Assembly (NCBI GenBank): GCA_963784355.1
Contig: CAWAQU010000009.1
Location: 92,682 to 156,681, forward strand
Origin: an uncultured bacterium
Lineage (GTDB): Bacteria; Patescibacteriota; JACMRA01
Length of the DNA: 64,000 bases
Direction: 5' to 3'
Position 1 is the stretch's first letter, and each line of letters opens with the position of its first letter. Both the position numbers and the translations under genes were made by a program. This document shows, one piece after another, positions 10,841-32,209 of this stretch. A model generated the notes under the pieces. It worked only from the letters and a program-made list of their open reading frames with translations, ran no database searches and had not been told where the DNA came from.

Positions 10841-13933
<3,093 letters not shown>

Positions 13934-14002
13934 TTATTAAATTTTTGATATTGAAATAAAAACATATTATTTAGAATTCAGCTGTAAGTCTTGATACAAG
14001 AT

Positions 14003-26568: not shown

Positions 26569-27720
26569 CTAATTTACGGCGAAAGTCACTAGTTTATTTG
26601 GAATGACTTTGTGAAATTTAATATCTTTCCCTTCGAGCCACTTGCTCACTGCCTCTTTAGCTTTTTCAATGACTAAATTTTCCTCAGAATCTGTATCAAT
26701 TTCAAATGTACCTCTCAATTTACCGTTTACCTGGACTGCTATGGTGACCACCTCGTCTAAAACTAAAAGAGGATCGTAGATATGCCAACTAGTTAAATGG
26801 ATTGATTTAGTATGATCGTTTTGATCAAAATTGTGATGCTTGTACCATAACTCTTCAGTGATATGAGGTGTAAAAGGGGCTAAAATTTGTAAGTATCCTG
26901 TCCAGATACTGCCCGGAATTATTTCTTGATCCTTTAAAATATTGTTGAAAGTCATTATTTCAGCTACTGCAACATTATTTTTTTGCAGTTCAAGGTGCTC
27001 AGTAATCTTTTTCACTGTTTTATGGTAGCTTGATAGTAACTTTTTATCTATATTGGTTATTGTCTTATCTACCTTAGACTCTAACCTAAATAAACCATCA
27101 ATTAGTTTTTTACAGGCTATTAAACCACCTTCTTGCCAGGATACTGTAGCTTCGTATGGTCCAATAAAATTTACATACAATCTTAGAGCATCTGCTCCTA
27201 CAGTATTTAATTTTTCATCAGGACTGATTACATTCCCTTTAGATTTGCTCATTTTACTACCGTCGCTAGCTAGCAATATTCCTCCATTAGTTCTTTTATT
27301 GTAAGGCTCGGAAGTAGGCACGTGGCCTAATTTATGTAGAGCTTTGTGCCAAAAACGAGAATACAGAAGGTGAAGAGTTGTATGTTCACTGCCACCGAAA
27401 TAGTGATCAACCGGTAGCCAATATTTCAAATTTTCTTGGGAAGCAAATTCCTGACTATTTTTTGGATCAGTATAACGCAGATAGTACCAGCTAGAACCTG
27501 CCCAGTTTGGCATAGTATCAGCTTCTCTTCTTCCTATAATTTCACCCTTTTCATCTCTTACATTTATCCAGTCCGATTTTATTAGTGGAGAGCGACCATC
27601 TTTAGAAGGCTCAAAATCTTGCACATCAGGCAATTCTAAAGGCAATTCCTCCTTACCTAGTAATCTAATTTCATATTCCTCTCCGTCAATAATGGTTTTT
27701 TTAGGTACTCCGTTGTCCAT
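26569..27720 (-). CDS. leuS: Leucyl-tRNA synthetase, C-terminal subunit (KMSKS half, anticodon-binding and C-terminal domains)
   Basis: ELPLELP, DTMPNWAGSSWYYLRY, HLLYSRFW, KMSKSKGN, VQVNGKLRG; start ATG 27720 or TTG 27738; TTGACT at 27756-27761 (minus). Confidence 0.92.
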   Translation of the reverse strand: MDNGVPKKTIIDGEEYEIRLLGKEELPLELPDVQDFEPSKDGRSPLIKSDWINVRDEKGEIIGRREADTMPNWAGSSWYYLRYTDPKNSQEFASQENLKYWLPVDHYFGGSEHTTLHLLYSRFWHKALHKLGHVPTSEPYNKRTNGGILLASDGSKMSKSKGNVISPDEKLNTVGADALRLYVNFIGPYEATVSWQEGGLIACKKLIDGLFRLESKVDKTITNIDKKLLSSYHKTVKKITEHLELQKNNVAVAEIMTFNNILKDQEIIPGSIWTGYLQILAPFTPHITEELWYKHHNFDQNDHTKSIHLTSWHIYDPLLVLDEVVTIAVQVNGKLRGTFEIDTDSEENLVIEKAKEAVSKWLEGKDIKFHKVIPNKLVTFAVN

Positions 27721-27768
27721 AATAATGGTATAAATCAAGTATTTATTTTTAATTCAGTCAAATCGTGG

Positions 27769-28347
27769 TTAAAGTTTAGATTTTCCAGTTAAGTGTTCCA
27801 GTAACTTAGGAAACTCTTCTTGATTAAAATGTCCTTTGGCATCAAAAAAATTAGTTTTGGCTAGAGGTAAGCTACTTTTGTATTTTACCGCATCCTGGAA
27901 ATCCACCACAAAATCGTCTTTGGAATGCCAAATAAAAATCTCATTGCAATTTTGTGAGAGTATGTTAAAGTTTTTAACTTGTTTAAATTTGCCGCAGGTT
28001 TCATATGGTGCAGCAATTAAATGTAATTCAGAAATTTTGAGCTTAACTTCGCTCAGATATTTAGCTAAAAATATTCCTCCCAGACTATGTCCAATTAAAA
28101 TATCACTTGGTTTAAGGCTAGAAGCAATTTTATCAAAAACTATTTTCCACTCCCGATACTGAGCATTTTGCTTGTTTGGCATATTAGGTAATAGTACCTC
28201 GAAATTTTTTTCTTGAAGTTTGGGGACTGCTGATAATTTCCAGTCTGAACGCTTAGTAAATTTGGGTTCGATAGAATTTAAGTAGGCGAGGTAGTCCTTA
28301 TAGGAATTAAAGCTGTCACCACCGTGGATTATAACAATTTTGGTCAT
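27769..28347 (-). CDS. RBBP9/YdeN-family alpha/beta hydrolase
   Basis: IIHGG, GHSLG, HSKDD, GHF catalytic elements. Confidence 0.88.
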   Translation of the reverse strand: MTKIVIIHGGDSFNSYKDYLAYLNSIEPKFTKRSDWKLSAVPKLQEKNFEVLLPNMPNKQNAQYREWKIVFDKIASSLKPSDILIGHSLGGIFLAKYLSEVKLKISELHLIAAPYETCGKFKQVKNFNILSQNCNEIFIWHSKDDFVVDFQDAVKYKSSLPLAKTNFFDAKGHFNQEEFPKLLEHLTGKSKL

Positions 28348-28632
28348 AAATAGATTGTAAATTGGTTTATGGAATTAGGATTAATTGATGCTAACAGGTA
28401 AGAAATTAAAAATCAAGACTGAATTCAAAAAAGCAAAAATCTGTTGAGTCGAATCATTTAATTTAACTTTAGCCCTATTTTATATAGCGATTTAGTTAGA
28501 TTGAGCAGCTATAAAGCTAAAATATTGTACTTAAGTAAAGTAACTATATATCATAATCTCTTAAAATATATCTTGACATATCTCGAAAATTATGGTAAGA
28601 GTTTAATAATACCCAAATTTAATACAATTTTT

Positions 28633-29001
28633 ATGTCTTTCGAAAAACATCTAAATCAGCCCACAAAAAAAACTGCGGAAACAGCAAAAAGTATTGATTA
28701 TGCAAATTACGTAACAGTTTTAGGCTCTGCTTTATTAACTCTAGGACTAACCGCACAACCAAGCATTGCTCCCGGCTTTGCACCTGAGCTACCAGCGAAT
28801 TTAGTTAGTCAGGGTAAAAAACAACAACCTGCTCCAAAAACAGAGCGACCTAAAGACCAATCTCCTCATAGGGGTTTTGGAAGGAGAGAGCTATATCCAA
28901 AACAAGATTTAGAATCAACTTTGACAGCTGTCAATCCGTCTACAGGAGAAAAGAATGTTATCGAGCTTAATGCTCCTAAGCAATTTCCTACTGCTGCATA
29001 A
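28633..29001 (+). CDS. Small putatively secreted protein with a PatX-like PHRGxGRRE motif
   Basis: TTGACA 28573 promoter, ATG 28633, signal-like LGSALLTLGLTAQPSIA, P/K/Q-rich linker, PHRGFGRRE at 28864-28890, downstream terminator. Confidence 0.6.
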   Translation: MSFEKHLNQPTKKTAETAKSIDYANYVTVLGSALLTLGLTAQPSIAPGFAPELPANLVSQGKKQQPAPKTERPKDQSPHRGFGRRELYPKQDLESTLTAVNPSTGEKNVIELNAPKQFPTAA

Positions 29002-29030
29002 ATCAATTTTTGTTAATAGCGCTAAAATTA

Positions 29031-29058
29031 TCTGCTCTAACCGGGGCAGGTTTTTTTT
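29031..29058 (+). terminator. Intrinsic terminator between convergent genes
   Basis: CTGCTCT-aacc-GGGGCAG followed by T8. Confidence 0.65.
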
Positions 29059-29068
29059 ATGAGATCTA

Positions 29069-32000
29069 TTACAAACTCTTCTTTATATATTCTACCGGAA
29101 ATGGTTCTCCCCAATATCTTTGTCTTGAAAATACCCAGTCTCTAAATTTATAATTGATTTGCTTATTGCCTCTACCTAAATTAATTAATTTTTGAGCAAT
29201 TTTTCCTCTGGCCTCTTCTGATCTCAACCCGTTAAATTCAGCAGAATTGTATAAAATTCCGTCACCAGTCACTGGTTTGTAGCTAAACGTTTGAATATTG
29301 TTTGTGGTATCTAAATTTAGAGTAATTGCTTGATTTATAGCTCTGCGAAAAATTTCAAATTGATGAGGATTGTTTTCCTGATTTAACTTTTGTAAAATTA
29401 TTTCAGCAGTTTCCCAACCAAAATTAAAGGCTTCATGGCTTTCGAGTTGAGTTTCACCTTCGGAGTTAGAGTCTGCAATTACCAAAAATGGATAAGTAAG
29501 AGCAAACCTATTAATTTTTTTCAGGCTATTGTAATAATGTGCATAAACAGGGCCGCCAAGCGGAATAACTTCAGAAATCTCTTGCAAACCAGTCTCTTCA
29601 ATGACTTCTCTTTCTGCTGCTTTATTTATTTCCTCACCTTCTTTAATTCCTCCTCCGACCATGATAAATTTATCATCTTCATGTTTCTGCAAATAGCCGT
29701 ATTTTTGTGTGCTAGGGTCAAAAACGACTGCACAAATTCCCTCCACAAAAGTTTCATTTTCGGCAGCTTTACCAAATTCAGGTGCGATGACTTCTTTTAA
29801 AGGAACATCATACTTTTTAGCCATTTCATTATCTCTTTCATCGTGAGCATTAGCCATAACCGCACCAGTGCCATATCCGGGTAATACAAAATCGGAGATC
29901 CATACAGGTAATTTTGCACCGGTCAAAGGATGATAGACGTAACCACCGGTAAAAGCACCTGTTTTTTCTTTATCAATTTGCCTGTCCAGCTCACTTTTAT
30001 TTTTAGTCTTTTCGATGTAGTCTTCTACAATCTGTTTCTGAGCTCTTGTAGTGATTTTTGATACTAAAGGATGTTCTGGAGCCAGTACCAAAAAAGTTGT
30101 GGAGTATATAGTGTCCACTCTGGTTGTGAAAGTCTGAATAGTATTTGCCTCAGCATCTTCTATTTTGCCTAAAGCCCACAAAGCCTGCTCTGTTGCATGC
30201 TCTTTTATATATTCCGGGCCAGCTAAAAAGCACTCAATATCTTTTTCAATACCAGGTTTTCTCTGATTCCAATTTTCCAGTGAGCATTCAAAATAGTAAA
30301 AATGGTCTAGTTTGTGAATAATTCCTGTTTTATTAGGATTCCAATTGTAAAAACCATGTGAAGTACCCAAATATTTTTTAAATTCCAATCCAGTCAATCC
30401 GACCTCTTCTTCAGTTTCGCGGATAGCGGCAGCCAAGCCATCCTCTCCCGGATCAATGTGGCCACCCGGAAACCGTACTCTTAAATCACCCCGTACTTTT
30501 TTATCGTAAATTACAAACTGGCCTGTTTCCTTTATTTTAATAACTGCAATTCCACGCTCACCTTGAGAAATGTTGAAATCAATGTCACCAATTTTTTCAG
30601 CAAAACTAGGGTATAAATTTTGAGTCATTTTACTCATGACCTTTGTTGTGTTTTCATTCCACAGTAGTTCCTTGGCTTCAGCAAAACTTACCCATTTATA
30701 CTCATCGTGTTCCCAATTTAGGGTAGGCTGCTTGTCTGTAAAAGCGTAAAAATTGAAAGCTCTGATTACATTTCCTTTTGGTGAGGTAAAACCCCAGGAA
30801 TAAGTATAATTTAGATTAGTTACACTAATTCCTGTCTCTTCAAAAACTTCTCTTTGCGTACCTGAAATTATATCTTCACCTTTATCAATCGAACCCCCTG
30901 CCAAATCCCATAATCCAGCCCCGTCATCTTCTTGAGAGCGTTTCATAATCAGTACTTGTTGATCTGAGTTAATCAAAAAACAAGAACCGTAGACTTTATT
31001 TAATTTATCCAGATCTTTTATTTTCTCGGAAAATTCGGTCGCTAACAGAGCCTTTGAACATTTTTGAAACACGTGTTTGACTACGTCTTTGTGGTCCTCC
31101 CAATTTAACAATTCAAGAGTTTCTGCATAATTTACCCATTTATACTCACTATGTTCACTACTTACTTTGACCTCATCATTTGCTTGAGTAAAAAAATAGA
31201 CATTGCCAATTTCTTTATTTGAACTGTGATGTAGAAAGCTGTGGGAATACAAAAGCTCAATATTTTCTACCTCTAGGCCTGTTTCCTCTAAAACTTCCCT
31301 TTTAGCCTCAGCAAAAATATCCTGAAAATCATCAATTCCACCACCCGGTAACTCCCAGACATTTGGTGAACTATCACTACTACTACGCTTCAATACTAAA
31401 ACCTGATTTTGCTTATTTAGTACCACCGTAGTTGTCTTGGCTTTTTCAAATTCCGTGGCATCAATTATATGCTCCGGTGCAATTTTCCAATCTACAACCA
31501 CTCCTTCACTTTTACCGATCCAATTGCGTTGCATGTCTTTAATGTGTTCCGGAAAGTTGGTTTCATCCAGCCCCGCAAGTAATTCTTCAGCGTATTCAGG
31601 CATTTTCAAAATCCACTGCATCATTTTCTTTTTTTCTACAGGATGTTCGCCACGCTCACTCACTTTTTGCCCATTAATTTCGATAATTTCTTCATTAGAT
31701 AGTACAGTTCCCAATTTTTCACACCACCAAAGCTCAACTTCTTTTTGTTCAGCTAGCCCCGCTTTATAAAGCTCTGTGAAAATCCATTGAGTCCATTTGT
31801 AATATTCAGGATCGGTTGTAGCAAACTCTCTATTCCAGTCAAAACCAAAGCCGAATCCGTTAAATATATCACGAAAATTATCAATATTTTGTTTGTTTAC
31901 TATTTTGGGATTAATCCCTGTTTTTCTGGCGTATTCTTCAGTAGGCAAACCAAAAGCATCCCAACCCATAGGAAAAAGTACATTGTATCCCCTCATTCTC

Positions 32001-32209
32001 AAAAATCTGCTGTAAACATCAGGTATGGTATAACGGAAAAAATGCCCCATATGCAGGCTGGCACCGGAAGGAAAAGGAAATTCCATTAGAATATATTTCT
32101 TCTCTTTAGTTGAGTCATTATCCACGGCAGCGTAGATATTATTTTTATACCACAAATTTTGCCACTTTTTTTCGATATCAGAATACGGATTGGAGGAATT
32201 GTTTTCCAT
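29069..32209 (-). CDS. leuS: Leucyl-tRNA synthetase, N-terminal subunit with four inserted Nudix domains
   Basis: FPFPSGASLHMGH (HIGH), GWDAFGLP, MQRNWIGKSEG, FTTRVDT, GTGAVM..HDERD, RDWVFSRQRYWGEPFP then TAA TAG; four Nudix boxes. Confidence 0.93.
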   Translation of the reverse strand: MENNSSNPYSDIEKKWQNLWYKNNIYAAVDNDSTKEKKYILMEFPFPSGASLHMGHFFRYTIPDVYSRFLRMRGYNVLFPMGWDAFGLPTEEYARKTGINPKIVNKQNIDNFRDIFNGFGFGFDWNREFATTDPEYYKWTQWIFTELYKAGLAEQKEVELWWCEKLGTVLSNEEIIEINGQKVSERGEHPVEKKKMMQWILKMPEYAEELLAGLDETNFPEHIKDMQRNWIGKSEGVVVDWKIAPEHIIDATEFEKAKTTTVVLNKQNQVLVLKRSSSDSSPNVWELPGGGIDDFQDIFAEAKREVLEETGLEVENIELLYSHSFLHHSSNKEIGNVYFFTQANDEVKVSSEHSEYKWVNYAETLELLNWEDHKDVVKHVFQKCSKALLATEFSEKIKDLDKLNKVYGSCFLINSDQQVLIMKRSQEDDGAGLWDLAGGSIDKGEDIISGTQREVFEETGISVTNLNYTYSWGFTSPKGNVIRAFNFYAFTDKQPTLNWEHDEYKWVSFAEAKELLWNENTTKVMSKMTQNLYPSFAEKIGDIDFNISQGERGIAVIKIKETGQFVIYDKKVRGDLRVRFPGGHIDPGEDGLAAAIRETEEEVGLTGLEFKKYLGTSHGFYNWNPNKTGIIHKLDHFYYFECSLENWNQRKPGIEKDIECFLAGPEYIKEHATEQALWALGKIEDAEANTIQTFTTRVDTIYSTTFLVLAPEHPLVSKITTRAQKQIVEDYIEKTKNKSELDRQIDKEKTGAFTGGYVYHPLTGAKLPVWISDFVLPGYGTGAVMANAHDERDNEMAKKYDVPLKEVIAPEFGKAAENETFVEGICAVVFDPSTQKYGYLQKHEDDKFIMVGGGIKEGEEINKAAEREVIEETGLQEISEVIPLGGPVYAHYYNSLKKINRFALTYPFLVIADSNSEGETQLESHEAFNFGWETAEIILQKLNQENNPHQFEIFRRAINQAITLNLDTTNNIQTFSYKPVTGDGILYNSAEFNGLRSEEARGKIAQKLINLGRGNKQINYKFRDWVFSRQRYWGEPFPVEYIKKSL

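What the first reader, a model, noticed from the sequence alone, without database searches (positions are those of the whole stretch)
28633..29001. PatX-like secreted peptide (PHRGFGRRE) in a CPR-type genome: possible mimic of a cyanobacterial heterocyst signal
Seen: a self-contained gene (TTGACA promoter, terminator) encoding a signal-peptide-like stretch, a Pro/Lys/Gln-rich linker (GKKQQPAPKTERPKDQS) and then PHRGFGRRE. The Phe codon is TTT, one transition from Ser TCT, which would give RGSGR. Known: PatS, HetN and PatX inhibit HetR through an RG(S/T)GR peptide, and PatX has a signal peptide, a Pro-rich linker and an HRG(S/T)GR motif. Inference: a host-dependent bacterium may have captured patX from a filamentous cyanobacterium and could use it, as agonist or decoy, to alter host differentiation or N2 fixation. 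No hetR is present in this window.
Basis: partly seen in the sequence, partly recalled or inferred. Interest (0 to 1): 0.8.

Follow-up and report, generated by a model that had tools for sequence, protein, structure and literature searches.

The report
PatX-like peptide gene in CPR bacterium
A tiny, probably host-dependent soil bacterium carries a diverged copy of PatX, the small secreted peptide that filamentous cyanobacteria use to control cell differentiation, which suggests gene capture from, and perhaps interference with, a cyanobacterial partner.

Summary
The ORF at 28633-29001 (+), 122 aa, exists as described and scores like a native gene (hexamer score at the median of real genes). My first reading was chance: the NCBIfam PatX score is below cut-off and similar noise occurs in other small genomes. 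That reading fell when I pulled real PatX genes from cyanobacterial genomes. Residues 27-88 align with PatX-like proteins of Crinalium/Oculatellaceae-type cyanobacteria (BLASTP E 3e-11 to 3e-10). The match reaches well beyond the HRGxGR motif. Profiles built only from cyanobacterial PatX pick this frame as the single hit among 14,070 frames of its own genome (E 1e-12 to 3.5e-5). No relative was found in 400 other genomes of its phylum. It fails strict PatX membership: Phe replaces Ser/Thr, there are extra N- and C-terminal parts, no hetR, and 18.7 bits against a cut-off of 30. Best reading: a horizontally acquired, codon-adapted PatX-family pre-pro-peptide that is exported. Action on a cyanobacterial partner's HetR circuit is inferred, about 0.35. 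Expression, TTT versus TCT in reads, and co-occurrence with cyanobacteria could not be tested.

The parts
28573..28578 (+). TTGACA, a -35-like hexamer. The best -10 at 17 nt is weak (TAAGAG at 28596-28601, preceded by TGG).
   Evidence: Read. Not called by the promoter scan, and promoter-like sites are not above shuffles.
28633..29001 (+). ORF P0001, 122 aa plus TAA: a PatX-family-like pre-pro-peptide gene.
   Evidence: Hexamer coding score is 0.681, the median of 748 real-gene chunks. 0.3% of 3740 non-coding-frame chunks and 5.6% of 72 shadow ORFs reach it.
28633..28710 (+). N-terminal extension, aa 1-26 (4 K/R, 3 D/E), with no counterpart in cyanobacterial PatX.
   Evidence: Alignment A1. 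There is no in-frame ATG/GTG/TTG between codon 1 and the hydrophobic stretch.
28711..28755 (+). Hydrophobic h-region, aa 27-41. It aligns with the signal-peptide h-region of PatX-like paralogues. Possible signal-peptidase sites lie after aa 38, 41 or 48.
   Evidence: This is a heuristic only; no SignalP was available.
28756..28860 (+). Pro/Lys/Gln-rich linker, aa 42-76.
28861..28896 (+). Conserved core, aa 77-88: the SPHRGxGRRELY type, with HRGFGR in the place of the active hexapeptide HRGTGR.
   Evidence: Invariant columns S77 P78 R80 G81 G83 R84 R85 E86 Y88 across 12 sequences. BLASTP.
28876..28878 (+). TTT, Phe82, at the central position of the pentapeptide.
   Evidence: Among 38 cyanobacterial ORFs this position is S in 25, N in 7, T in 4, D in 2, and never F.
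28897..28998 (+). C-terminal tail, aa 89-122, with no counterpart in cyanobacterial PatX-like proteins.
   Evidence: 38 residues follow RGFGR, against 0-36 (median 13) in 38 cyanobacterial ORFs.
29030..29059 (+). Hairpin (9 pairs) plus a T run: an intrinsic-terminator-like site shared by the convergent P0001 and LeuRS-N genes.
29069..32209 (-). Context: N-terminal part of a split leucyl-tRNA synthetase with four NUDIX domains inserted.
27769..28347 (-). Context: stand-alone alpha/beta (Ser) hydrolase ORF. It is in frame with LeuRS-C but separated from it by two stops.
26569..27738 (-). Context: C-terminal part of the split leucyl-tRNA synthetase.

Best explanation
The ORF is a real gene for a diverged member of the PatX family. 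PatX is the small Sec-exported pre-pro-peptide of HetR-bearing filamentous cyanobacteria. An ancestor of this small-genome (CPR-type) bacterium acquired the gene by horizontal transfer.

Shown:
- Sequence relatedness from the hydrophobic N-region to the SPHRGxGRRELY core.
- Native codon and hexamer usage.
- No relative found in the sampled genomes of its own phylum.

Inferred mechanism:
- The protein is exported through Sec by its hydrophobic N-region. In a cell without an outer membrane it would then be released.
- Proteolysis, possibly by the partner's PatP-type peptidase, frees a short peptide holding HRGFGR.
- That peptide acts on the hood domain of HetR in a neighbouring or host filamentous cyanobacterium (closest relatives by score are Crinalium/Oculatellaceae-type), either as inhibitor or as decoy. 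The bacterium itself has no hetR.

My odds:
- Real gene: 0.9.
- PatX homologue obtained by transfer: 0.85.
- Exported: 0.75.
- The whole chain, including action on a cyanobacterial HetR circuit: about 0.35.
For: Similarity to real PatX:
- BLASTP to four paralogue types: 41.2 bits, E 3e-11; 38.5 bits, 3e-10; 39.3 bits, 1e-10; and 39.7 bits, 1e-10 over aa 27-88 with 24 of 62 identical.
- The type-A relatives lie next to hetR in 3 of 3 genomes.

Profile searches:
- Profiles built from cyanobacterial ORFs only were searched against all 14,070 six-frame frames of at least 30 aa of the own genome. This frame ranks first each time.
- E 1.1e-12 with the 11 closest paralogues, and 3.8e-9 with all 38 ORFs.
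- E 3.5e-5 with the 27 ORFs chosen by NCBIfam alone, independently of this protein.
- The next best frames have E 0.09-0.43.

Reverse search:
- P0001 against 81 Cyanobacteriales genomes gave 15 places at E<=0.01. 13 of them are PatX-like ORFs.
- Against 400 other genomes of its own phylum it gave only 3 places of 16-17 bits, none with the motif.

Other sequence tests:
- Motif-anchored shuffles: 0 of 3000 reach the observed score.
- A profile search of 5.8 billion proteins returns P0001 plus 23 cyanobacterial proteins. One is named by NCBI 'heterocyst-inhibiting protein PatX [Crinalium epipsammum]'.

Native coding style:
- Hexamer score is 0.665, against 0.15-0.24 for cyanobacterial patX under the same model.
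- Motif arginines are AGG/AGG/AGA, where the cyanobacterial genes have CGN in 11 of 11, 10 of 11 and 7 of 11. The genome prefers AGA/AGG, 75% of Arg codons.
- Lack of a Shine-Dalgarno is normal in this genome: 23 of 626 genes have one, the same as shuffled sequence.

Literature:
- PatX needs export and is cut to HRGTGR, which binds HetR at 88 nM (sections read of PMC12756182).
- Added PatS peptides suppress differentiation (Introduction of PMC12756182). The same paper says exogenous PatX6 does so too (its Results).
Against: - The NCBIfam PatX model gives 18.7 bits against a cut-off of 30, and aligns only aa 55-86. However, undoubted cyanobacterial paralogues score 10.2-38.5 bits.
- Phe at the central position is seen in none of 38 cyanobacterial ORFs and in none of 23 database relatives.
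- In the HetR-PatS6 structure the Ser side chain hydrogen-bonds Glu253, and the peptide must be a free hexapeptide. Longer N-termini bind worse (passages of PMC4649674). Signal-less full-length PatX did not bind HetR in a two-hybrid assay.
- The protein has 26 extra N-terminal residues, an unusually long n-region for a signal peptide, and a 34-aa extra tail.
- The maximum-likelihood tree does not place it: branch length 1.32, in an open polytomy. No donor can be named.
- There is only one genome. The same-genus genome lacks it.
- There are no expression data and no evidence of a cyanobacterial partner.
- Look-elsewhere effect: 41 bits would not be significant in a blind search of billions of proteins, which is why searches missed it. 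The case rests on the pre-stated PatX hypothesis and on the anchored and genome-wide tests.
Confidence: 0.35

Rival explanations
1. True PatX homologue, but repurposed. The exported peptide serves the bacterium's own biology (surface, adhesion, or a signal for another receptor) and no longer addresses HetR. The Phe substitution and the new N- and C-terminal parts mark that change of function.
For: - Phe was never seen at the central position: 0 of 38 ORFs and 0 of 23 database relatives.
- The extra 26-aa and 34-aa parts have native coding scores of 0.67 and 0.85.
- The tree branch is long.
- In the structure, the Ser hydroxyl contacts Glu253 of HetR.
Against: - The only change in the 12-residue core is at the position that varies naturally (S/T/N/D).
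- The rest of the core is kept while the remainder of the protein has diverged to about 30-39% identity.
- No other partner for this core is known.
- No hetR-like gene or other relative of this protein was found in the genome.
Confidence: 0.27
2. True PatX homologue, but a functionless relic of a chance transfer. It sits in a rearranging spot between the halves of a split LeuRS gene and is not, or no longer, under selection.
For: - It is present in one genome only. It was not found in the same-genus genome or in 400 phylum-mates.
- It lies in lineage-specific DNA without similarity to relatives' loci: best tblastx E 0.064, while the hydrolase control hit 13 of 20 loci.
- The promoter is weak.
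- The central residue is non-canonical.
Against: - The 122-codon frame is intact, with a coding score at the median of real genes.
- Codon usage is adapted to this genome although the core residues are kept.
- A terminator is oriented for this strand.
- The same-genus genome is distant (LeuRS-C 66% identical), so absence there does not imply a recent arrival.
Confidence: 0.25
3. Chance resemblance. This would be an orphan small membrane or secreted protein whose low-complexity linker and RGxGR motif happen to resemble PatX.
For: - RGxGR is expected about 1.2 times per proteome.
- The curated PatX model is below cut-off.
- 8 places in 7 of 300 other small genomes score better than this one with that model. 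Those I translated (7 of the 8) are hydrophobic N-regions or junk frames.
- 41 bits is not significant against billions of proteins.
Against: - Anchored shuffles: 0 of 3000.
- An independent 27-sequence profile finds it as the only hit in its genome, E 3.5e-5.
- The alignment extends over 62 residues, including the h-region.
- 13 of the 15 reverse hits are PatX-like ORFs.
Confidence: 0.08
4. Assembly or binning artefact: a cyanobacterial fragment joined into a contig of a small-genome bacterium.
For: - The gene sits at a break in a gene (split LeuRS).
- The region 28674-30907 is not covered by the public contigs I could lay.
Against: - Hexamer and codon usage are those of this genome, not of cyanobacterial patX.
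- GC3 is 0.21 against the genome's 0.26.
- The contig is 156,681 bases.
- Overlapping, independently built contig pieces at 100% identity run from the hydrolase gene into the ORF, 27932-28673.
- There is no DNA-level match to the cyanobacterial genes beyond 12 bases.
Confidence: 0.03

Closest known systems
PatX of HetR-bearing filamentous cyanobacteria (NCBIfam NF047413; 56 aa in Nostoc PCC 7120)
   Same: - The same order of parts: hydrophobic Sec-type N-region, polar/Pro-containing linker, then [SA]PHRGxGR[RK]E core.
- Pairwise and profile similarity are significant.
   Different: - RGFGR instead of RG(S/T)GR.
- 122 aa, with a 26-aa N-terminal extension and 38 residues after the pentapeptide.
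- 18.7 bits against the cut-off of 30.
- No hetR in the genome.
- No TCCGGA (DIF1) motif upstream; the nearest is at 31548.
- The genome is not cyanobacterial.
PatX-like paralogue set of Crinalium / Oculatellaceae-type genomes (G369, G334, G393; proteins P0004-P0024)
   Same: - Best-scoring relatives: the top 11 of 38 Smith-Waterman scores come from these genomes.
- P0001 stretch RPKDQSPHRGFGRRELYP matches P0004 stretch QRPRDQSPHRGTGRRELYQ and P0013 stretch PREKSPHRGNGRRELYPSK.
- The central residue is already variable here (T or N).
- Several members also fall below the NCBIfam cut-off (10.2-24.4 bits).
   Different: - These proteins are 66-73 aa (86-93 only if an upstream Met is used) and occur at 3-6 copies per genome. 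One type lies beside hetR.
- None has Phe.
- The tree does not nest P0001 inside them.
PatS and HetN (RGSGR-bearing inhibitors of HetR)
   Same: They share only the idea of an RGxGR peptide released from a precursor.
   Different: - PatS is a 17-aa cytoplasmic product without a Sec signal, and HetN is a ketoacyl-reductase-like protein (Introduction of PMC12756182; passages of PMC4649674).
- I did not compare P0001 directly with a PatS or HetN sequence: none was fetched.

Membership tests
PatX (NCBIfam NF047413, equivalog) | Whole-protein score at or above the curated cut-off of 30 bits | tested here: not met
   18.7 bits, E 0.0023, aa 55-86 on profile positions 39-68 of 69. Positive controls score 48-63 bits in 3 of 5 named cyanobacterial genomes and are over the cut-off in 24 of 81 genomes.
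PatX | RG(S/T)GR pentapeptide (abstract and passages of PMC7761841) | tested here: not met
   The motif is RGFGR, with codon TTT. In 38 cyanobacterial PatX-like ORFs the central residue is S in 25, N in 7, T in 4 and D in 2.
PatX | Sequence relatedness to bona fide PatX beyond the pentapeptide | tested here: met
   - BLASTP E 3e-11 to 3e-10.
- Cyanobacteria-only profiles give E 1.1e-12, 3.8e-9 and 3.5e-5, each as the top frame of 14,070.
- Anchored shuffles: 0 of 3000.
PatX | N-terminal Sec-type signal sequence, with export needed for activity (PMC12756182, section read) | tested here: inconclusive
   A 15-aa hydrophobic stretch at aa 27-41 aligns with the h-region of the paralogues. It follows a 26-aa n-region. 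No SignalP or DeepTMHMM was available.
PatX | Small protein with the motif at or near the C-terminus | tested here: not met
   P0001 is 122 aa with 38 residues after the motif. The 38 cyanobacterial ORFs are 56-201 aa (median 72) with 0-36 residues after the motif (median 13).
PatX | Co-occurrence with hetR in the same genome | tested here: not met
   No PF03574 match at E<=1 in the 81%-complete assembly. hetR is present in 4 of 4 cyanobacterial genomes tested, and adjacent to type-A patX in 3.
PatX | DIF1 (TCCGGA) promoter, NtcA/HetR dependent (passage of PMC7761841) | tested here: not met
   There is no TCCGGA between 28348 and 28632. The nearest of the 19 in the window is at 31548.
PatX | The derived hexapeptide binds HetR and blocks DNA binding and differentiation | not testable with these tools
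   This needs ITC, EMSA or culture assays.
PatX | Cleavage by the periplasmic peptidase PatP | not tested
I therefore did not search the genome for a PatP homologue.

The most novel reading that the evidence does not exclude
An ultra-small, host-dependent soil bacterium has stolen the precursor of a cyanobacterial morphogen. It secretes the product to tune HetR-controlled development (heterocysts, or necridia and filament fragmentation in non-heterocystous forms) of a Crinalium-like filamentous host. The Phe variant would act as an altered-affinity inhibitor or as a decoy. That would be inter-phylum mimicry of a bacterial patterning signal. It would also give a sequence-based pointer to the host of an uncultured CPR lineage.
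Probability: 0.2. Interest if true: 0.9.

Novelty: new variant of a known kind. Interest (0 to 1): 0.75.

Why it matters
- PatX, HetR and the RGxGR peptides are treated in the literature I read as a cyanobacteria-only module. No held paper contains both 'PatX' and 'Patescibacteria'.
- A PatX-family gene in a CPR-type genome would be the first member outside the phylum, so far as my searches reach.
- Hosts of most soil CPR bacteria are unknown. A gene whose only known partner is HetR points to HetR-bearing filamentous cyanobacteria as the partner.
- It turns 'who is the host and how is it manipulated' into bench tests with a six-residue synthetic peptide.
- The natural S/T/N/D/F series at the central position is a ready-made probe of HetR-peptide specificity.

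Tried and rejected
- **First reading, 'chance motif'.** It was based on the sub-threshold NCBIfam score, on RGxGR being expected about 1.2 times per proteome, and on better-scoring noise in 7 of 300 other small genomes. I rejected it after real PatX genes were fetched.
- **Single-sequence database searches.** They found only the query. The search for homologous proteins gave 1 of 9 candidates, and the region 52-95 search gave 1 candidate. phmmer over 1.84 billion representatives gave self plus two repeat-protein artefacts. The ESM Atlas gave no usable hit. These blanks reflect word indexing and database-size E-values, not absence.
- **Complex prediction.** HetR of G369 (two copies) with P0001 aa 60-95 gave no verdict: score 0.00, controls not run. 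The test suits this case poorly, because only the freed hexapeptide is known to bind.
- **Sequencing runs.** No RNA holder is listed. One DNA holder with a small share (0.18) is labelled soil metagenome. Its contig pieces match at 100% but end at 28673, so the Phe codon and any co-occurrence with cyanobacteria could not be examined.
- **Degenerate pattern for PHRGxGRRELY.** In metagenome contigs, 5 hits: 2 cyanobacterial type-A PatX and 3 off-target. In viral contigs, 2 hits, both off-target (the second viral locus has the same length and match position as off-target L200 and was not translated). No second Phe variant turned up.
- **Mobile elements.** tblastn against plasmids and phages gave no match. 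No mobile-element repeats flank the gene.
- **Decayed LeuRS remnant.** The 720-bp gap is not one: best tblastx E 0.064.
- **Tree placement.** Unresolved.
- **16S of G369 and G334.** At most 92% identical to the named loci, so uninformative.
- **Pfam.** The Tox-WTIP hit is 17.9 bits against a cut-off of 25. I dismissed it as sub-threshold; it lies on aa 8-58, over the N-terminal extension and the hydrophobic stretch. PF28278, which the database lists for the cyanobacterial relatives, is not in the local Pfam copy.
- **Closed or missing sources.** Elhai and Khudyakov 2018 is not held; what I say of it comes from citing papers. Table S3 of PMC12756182 was not available.

Full report
**1. What is there**

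The + strand carries an ORF from ATG 28633 to TAA 29001, 122 aa (P0001). Its parts are:
- a 26-aa polar N-terminus;
- a 15-aa hydrophobic stretch (aa 27-41), the protein's hydropathy maximum;
- a Pro/Lys/Gln-rich linker;
- the stretch RPKDQSPHRGFGRRELYP (aa 72-89), with Phe encoded by TTT at 28876-28878;
- a 33-aa tail.

TTGACA sits at 28573-28578, but the -10 is weak. The promoter scan does not call the site, and promoter-like sites are not above shuffles (3 found, 3.4 expected).

A 9-bp hairpin with a T run at 29030-29059 is oriented for this strand. It lies between this ORF and the convergent LeuRS-N gene.

**2. Is it a gene?**

- An in-frame hexamer model was trained on half of the genome's 421 long ORFs. 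It gives 0.681 per codon, the median of 748 held-out real-gene chunks.
- Only 0.3% of 3740 non-coding-frame chunks and 5.6% of 72 shadow ORFs reach that score.
- The genome does not use Shine-Dalgarno sites: 23 of 626 long ORFs have one, the same 4% as shuffled upstream sequence. Its absence here therefore says nothing.

**3. First reading, and why I dropped it**

The evidence for chance looked adequate at first:
- Single-sequence searches of 5.8 billion proteins and of 1.84 billion representatives returned only the query and two repeat-protein artefacts.
- RGxGR is expected about 1.2 times per proteome.
- The NCBIfam PatX model gave 18.7 bits against a cut-off of 30.
- The same model over 301 genomes of the phylum gave better-scoring junk in 7 other genomes.

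On that basis I took the resemblance for chance. I then fetched real PatX for a positive control. A cyanobacterial 16S primer gave named genomes. The PatX model scored 48-63 bits in 3 of 5 of them. It was over the cut-off in 24 of 81 genomes of the same order. Translating those frames showed proteins whose C-terminal region matches P0001 far beyond the pentapeptide. One example is the P0004 stretch QRPRDQSPHRGTGRRELYQ. Another is the P0013 stretch PREKSPHRGNGRRELYPSK.

**4. Tests of relatedness**

- **Pairwise BLASTP.** 41.2, 38.5, 39.3 and 39.7 bits, E 3e-11 to 3e-10. The last alignment covers aa 27-88 with 24 of 62 identities, so it includes the hydrophobic N-region.
- **Anchored shuffles.** With HRGFGR fixed and the flanks shuffled, 0 of 3000 shuffles reach the observed score against 38 cyanobacterial ORFs. 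The strictest version shuffles only 10 residues on each side; its Gumbel tail is about 3e-4.
- **Profile searches.** Profiles built without P0001 were searched against all 14,070 six-frame frames of the own genome. This frame ranks first each time: E 1.1e-12 (11 closest paralogues), 3.8e-9 (all 38) and 3.5e-5 (27 ORFs selected only by NCBIfam). Runners-up have E 0.09-0.43.
- **Reverse search.** P0001 against 81 Cyanobacteriales genomes gives 15 places at E<=0.01, of which 13 are PatX-like ORFs. Against 400 other genomes of its own phylum it gives 3 places of 16-17 bits without the motif.
- **Database profile search.** A profile of alignment A1 against 5.8 billion proteins returns 24 proteins: P0001 and 23 cyanobacterial ones. 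Sources name them from Crinalium epipsammum (as 'heterocyst-inhibiting protein PatX'), from a Crinalium sp. MAG and from an Oculatellaceae MAG.
- **Genomic context of the relatives.** In three such genomes the type-A gene lies next to hetR.

I conclude that P0001 is related to PatX, with odds of about 0.85-0.9. The caveat is that 41 bits is significant only because the hypothesis was named beforehand.

**5. How it differs**

- It fails the strict definition of PatX. Phe replaces Ser/Thr. The score is below the cut-off. It has a 26-aa N-terminal extension and 38 residues after the pentapeptide, against 0-36 in the cyanobacterial ORFs. There is no hetR in the assembly and no TCCGGA promoter motif upstream.
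- The central residue is not invariant in nature: S in 25, N in 7, T in 4 and D in 2 of 38 ORFs.
- Clear cyanobacterial paralogues score only 10.2-24.4 bits with the curated model.
- Phe was seen nowhere else.
- The nearest relatives carry ACN or AAT at that codon, each two changes from TTT.

**6. Origin**

- PatX-like genes are common in filamentous cyanobacteria. None was found in 400 sampled phylum-mates or in the same-genus genome. Transfer from a cyanobacterium is therefore the parsimonious direction.
- The transfer is not recent. There is no DNA-level similarity beyond a 12-base run. The motif arginines use AGG/AGG/AGA where the cyanobacterial genes use mostly CGN. The gene scores 0.665 under this genome's coding model, against 0.15-0.24 for cyanobacterial patX.
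- The same-genus genome is itself distant: LeuRS-C is 66% identical.
- The tree leaves P0001 on a long branch in a polytomy, so no donor can be named.
- The gene sits in 720 bp of lineage-specific DNA between the halves of a split LeuRS. That DNA is not a decayed part of that gene. It has no flanking repeats and no plasmid or phage match.
- Overlapping public contig pieces at 100% identity bridge 27932-28673. This supports the left junction of the assembly.

**7. How it probably works**

From the sections I read of PMC12756182:
- PatX must be exported.
- It is cut by the peptidase PatP to HRGTGR.
- That hexapeptide binds HetR at 88 nM and blocks DNA binding.
- PatS peptides added from outside also suppress differentiation, and the paper says the same of exogenous PatX6.

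From passages of PMC4649674:
- The peptide adds a beta strand to the HetR hood domain.
- Its two arginines make most contacts, and the serine makes one hydrogen bond to Glu253.
- N-terminal extensions weaken binding.

This genome has no hetR, yet it keeps 11 of the 12 core residues. The most specific reading is an exported pro-peptide whose product acts on HetR of a neighbouring or host cyanobacterium. The steps of export, processing, uptake and binding are all inferred. I put the whole chain at about 0.35. The rivals are a repurposed homologue (0.27), a relic (0.25), chance (0.08) and an assembly artefact (0.03).

**8. What could not be done**

- The predicted-complex job gave no verdict.
- No RNA run is listed. 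The only DNA holder, labelled soil metagenome, does not cover the motif.
- Signal-peptide predictors, the PatP family assignment (in a closed supplement), the founding PatX paper (not held) and the earlier-findings tool (closed) were unavailable.
- No held paper contains both 'PatX' and 'Patescibacteria'.

**9. Verdict**

The mimicry idea remains an untested but now concrete hypothesis. I rate it a new variant of a known kind, with interest 0.75.

Noticed in passing
window 26569-32209, - strand: The only leucyl-tRNA synthetase of the genome is in pieces. The N-part is 1046 aa with four NUDIX domains inserted (29069-32209). A separate alpha/beta hydrolase ORF follows (27769-28347). The C-part (26569-27738) is in frame with the hydrolase but cut off from it by two stops. 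The same-genus genome also has a separate C-part, at another place.
   Followed up: partly
L007:1-3240 (-) and L005:37-2544 (+), relatives G005 and G011: In family relatives the same hydrolase domain lies inside giant aminoacyl-tRNA synthetase ORFs. One is a class I synthetase carrying HAD, hydrolase and NUDIX domains. The other is an alanyl-tRNA synthetase carrying guanylate kinase, Ham1-like and hydrolase domains. Nucleotide-housekeeping enzymes fused into synthetases seem to be a trait of this family.
   Followed up: partly
window 10842-13934, + strand: The 23S rRNA match spans 3093 bases against a model of 2925 positions. The gene therefore carries about 170 extra bases, as insertion(s).
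   Followed up: no
G000:C9:48632-51823 (L227): Ribosomal protein S5 is followed by EF-Ts and L25, not by L30 and L15. L30 was not found anywhere in the assembly, although 13 of 14 control genomes have it.
   Followed up: partly
whole genome G000: There is no Shine-Dalgarno signal. SD-like 4-5mers occur upstream of 23 of 626 long ORFs, the same 4% as in shuffled upstream sequence.
   Followed up: no
G369, G334, G393 (loci L209-L218, L223): Crinalium/Oculatellaceae-type genomes hold 3 to 6 PatX-like paralogues each, of four types. Many carry RGNGR or NRGNGR instead of RG(S/T)GR. Only one type sits beside hetR.
   Followed up: partly
L189 (G352) and L171 (G380): There are PatX-like ORFs with tandem copies of the pentapeptide. 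One is 201 aa with 11 RGSGR units, and one is 149 aa with 3. They look like polyprotein precursors.
   Followed up: no
window, 19 sites (e.g. 2134, 31548, 63935): The palindrome TCCGGA occurs 19 times in the window, against 4.5 +/- 2.1 in shuffles. None is near the ORF, and the cause was not examined.
   Followed up: no
L199, L201, L228 (metagenome and viral contigs): A 153-aa open frame ends with PHSGFGRREFY. It was an off-target hit of the degenerate pattern and is unrelated to PatX.
   Followed up: no
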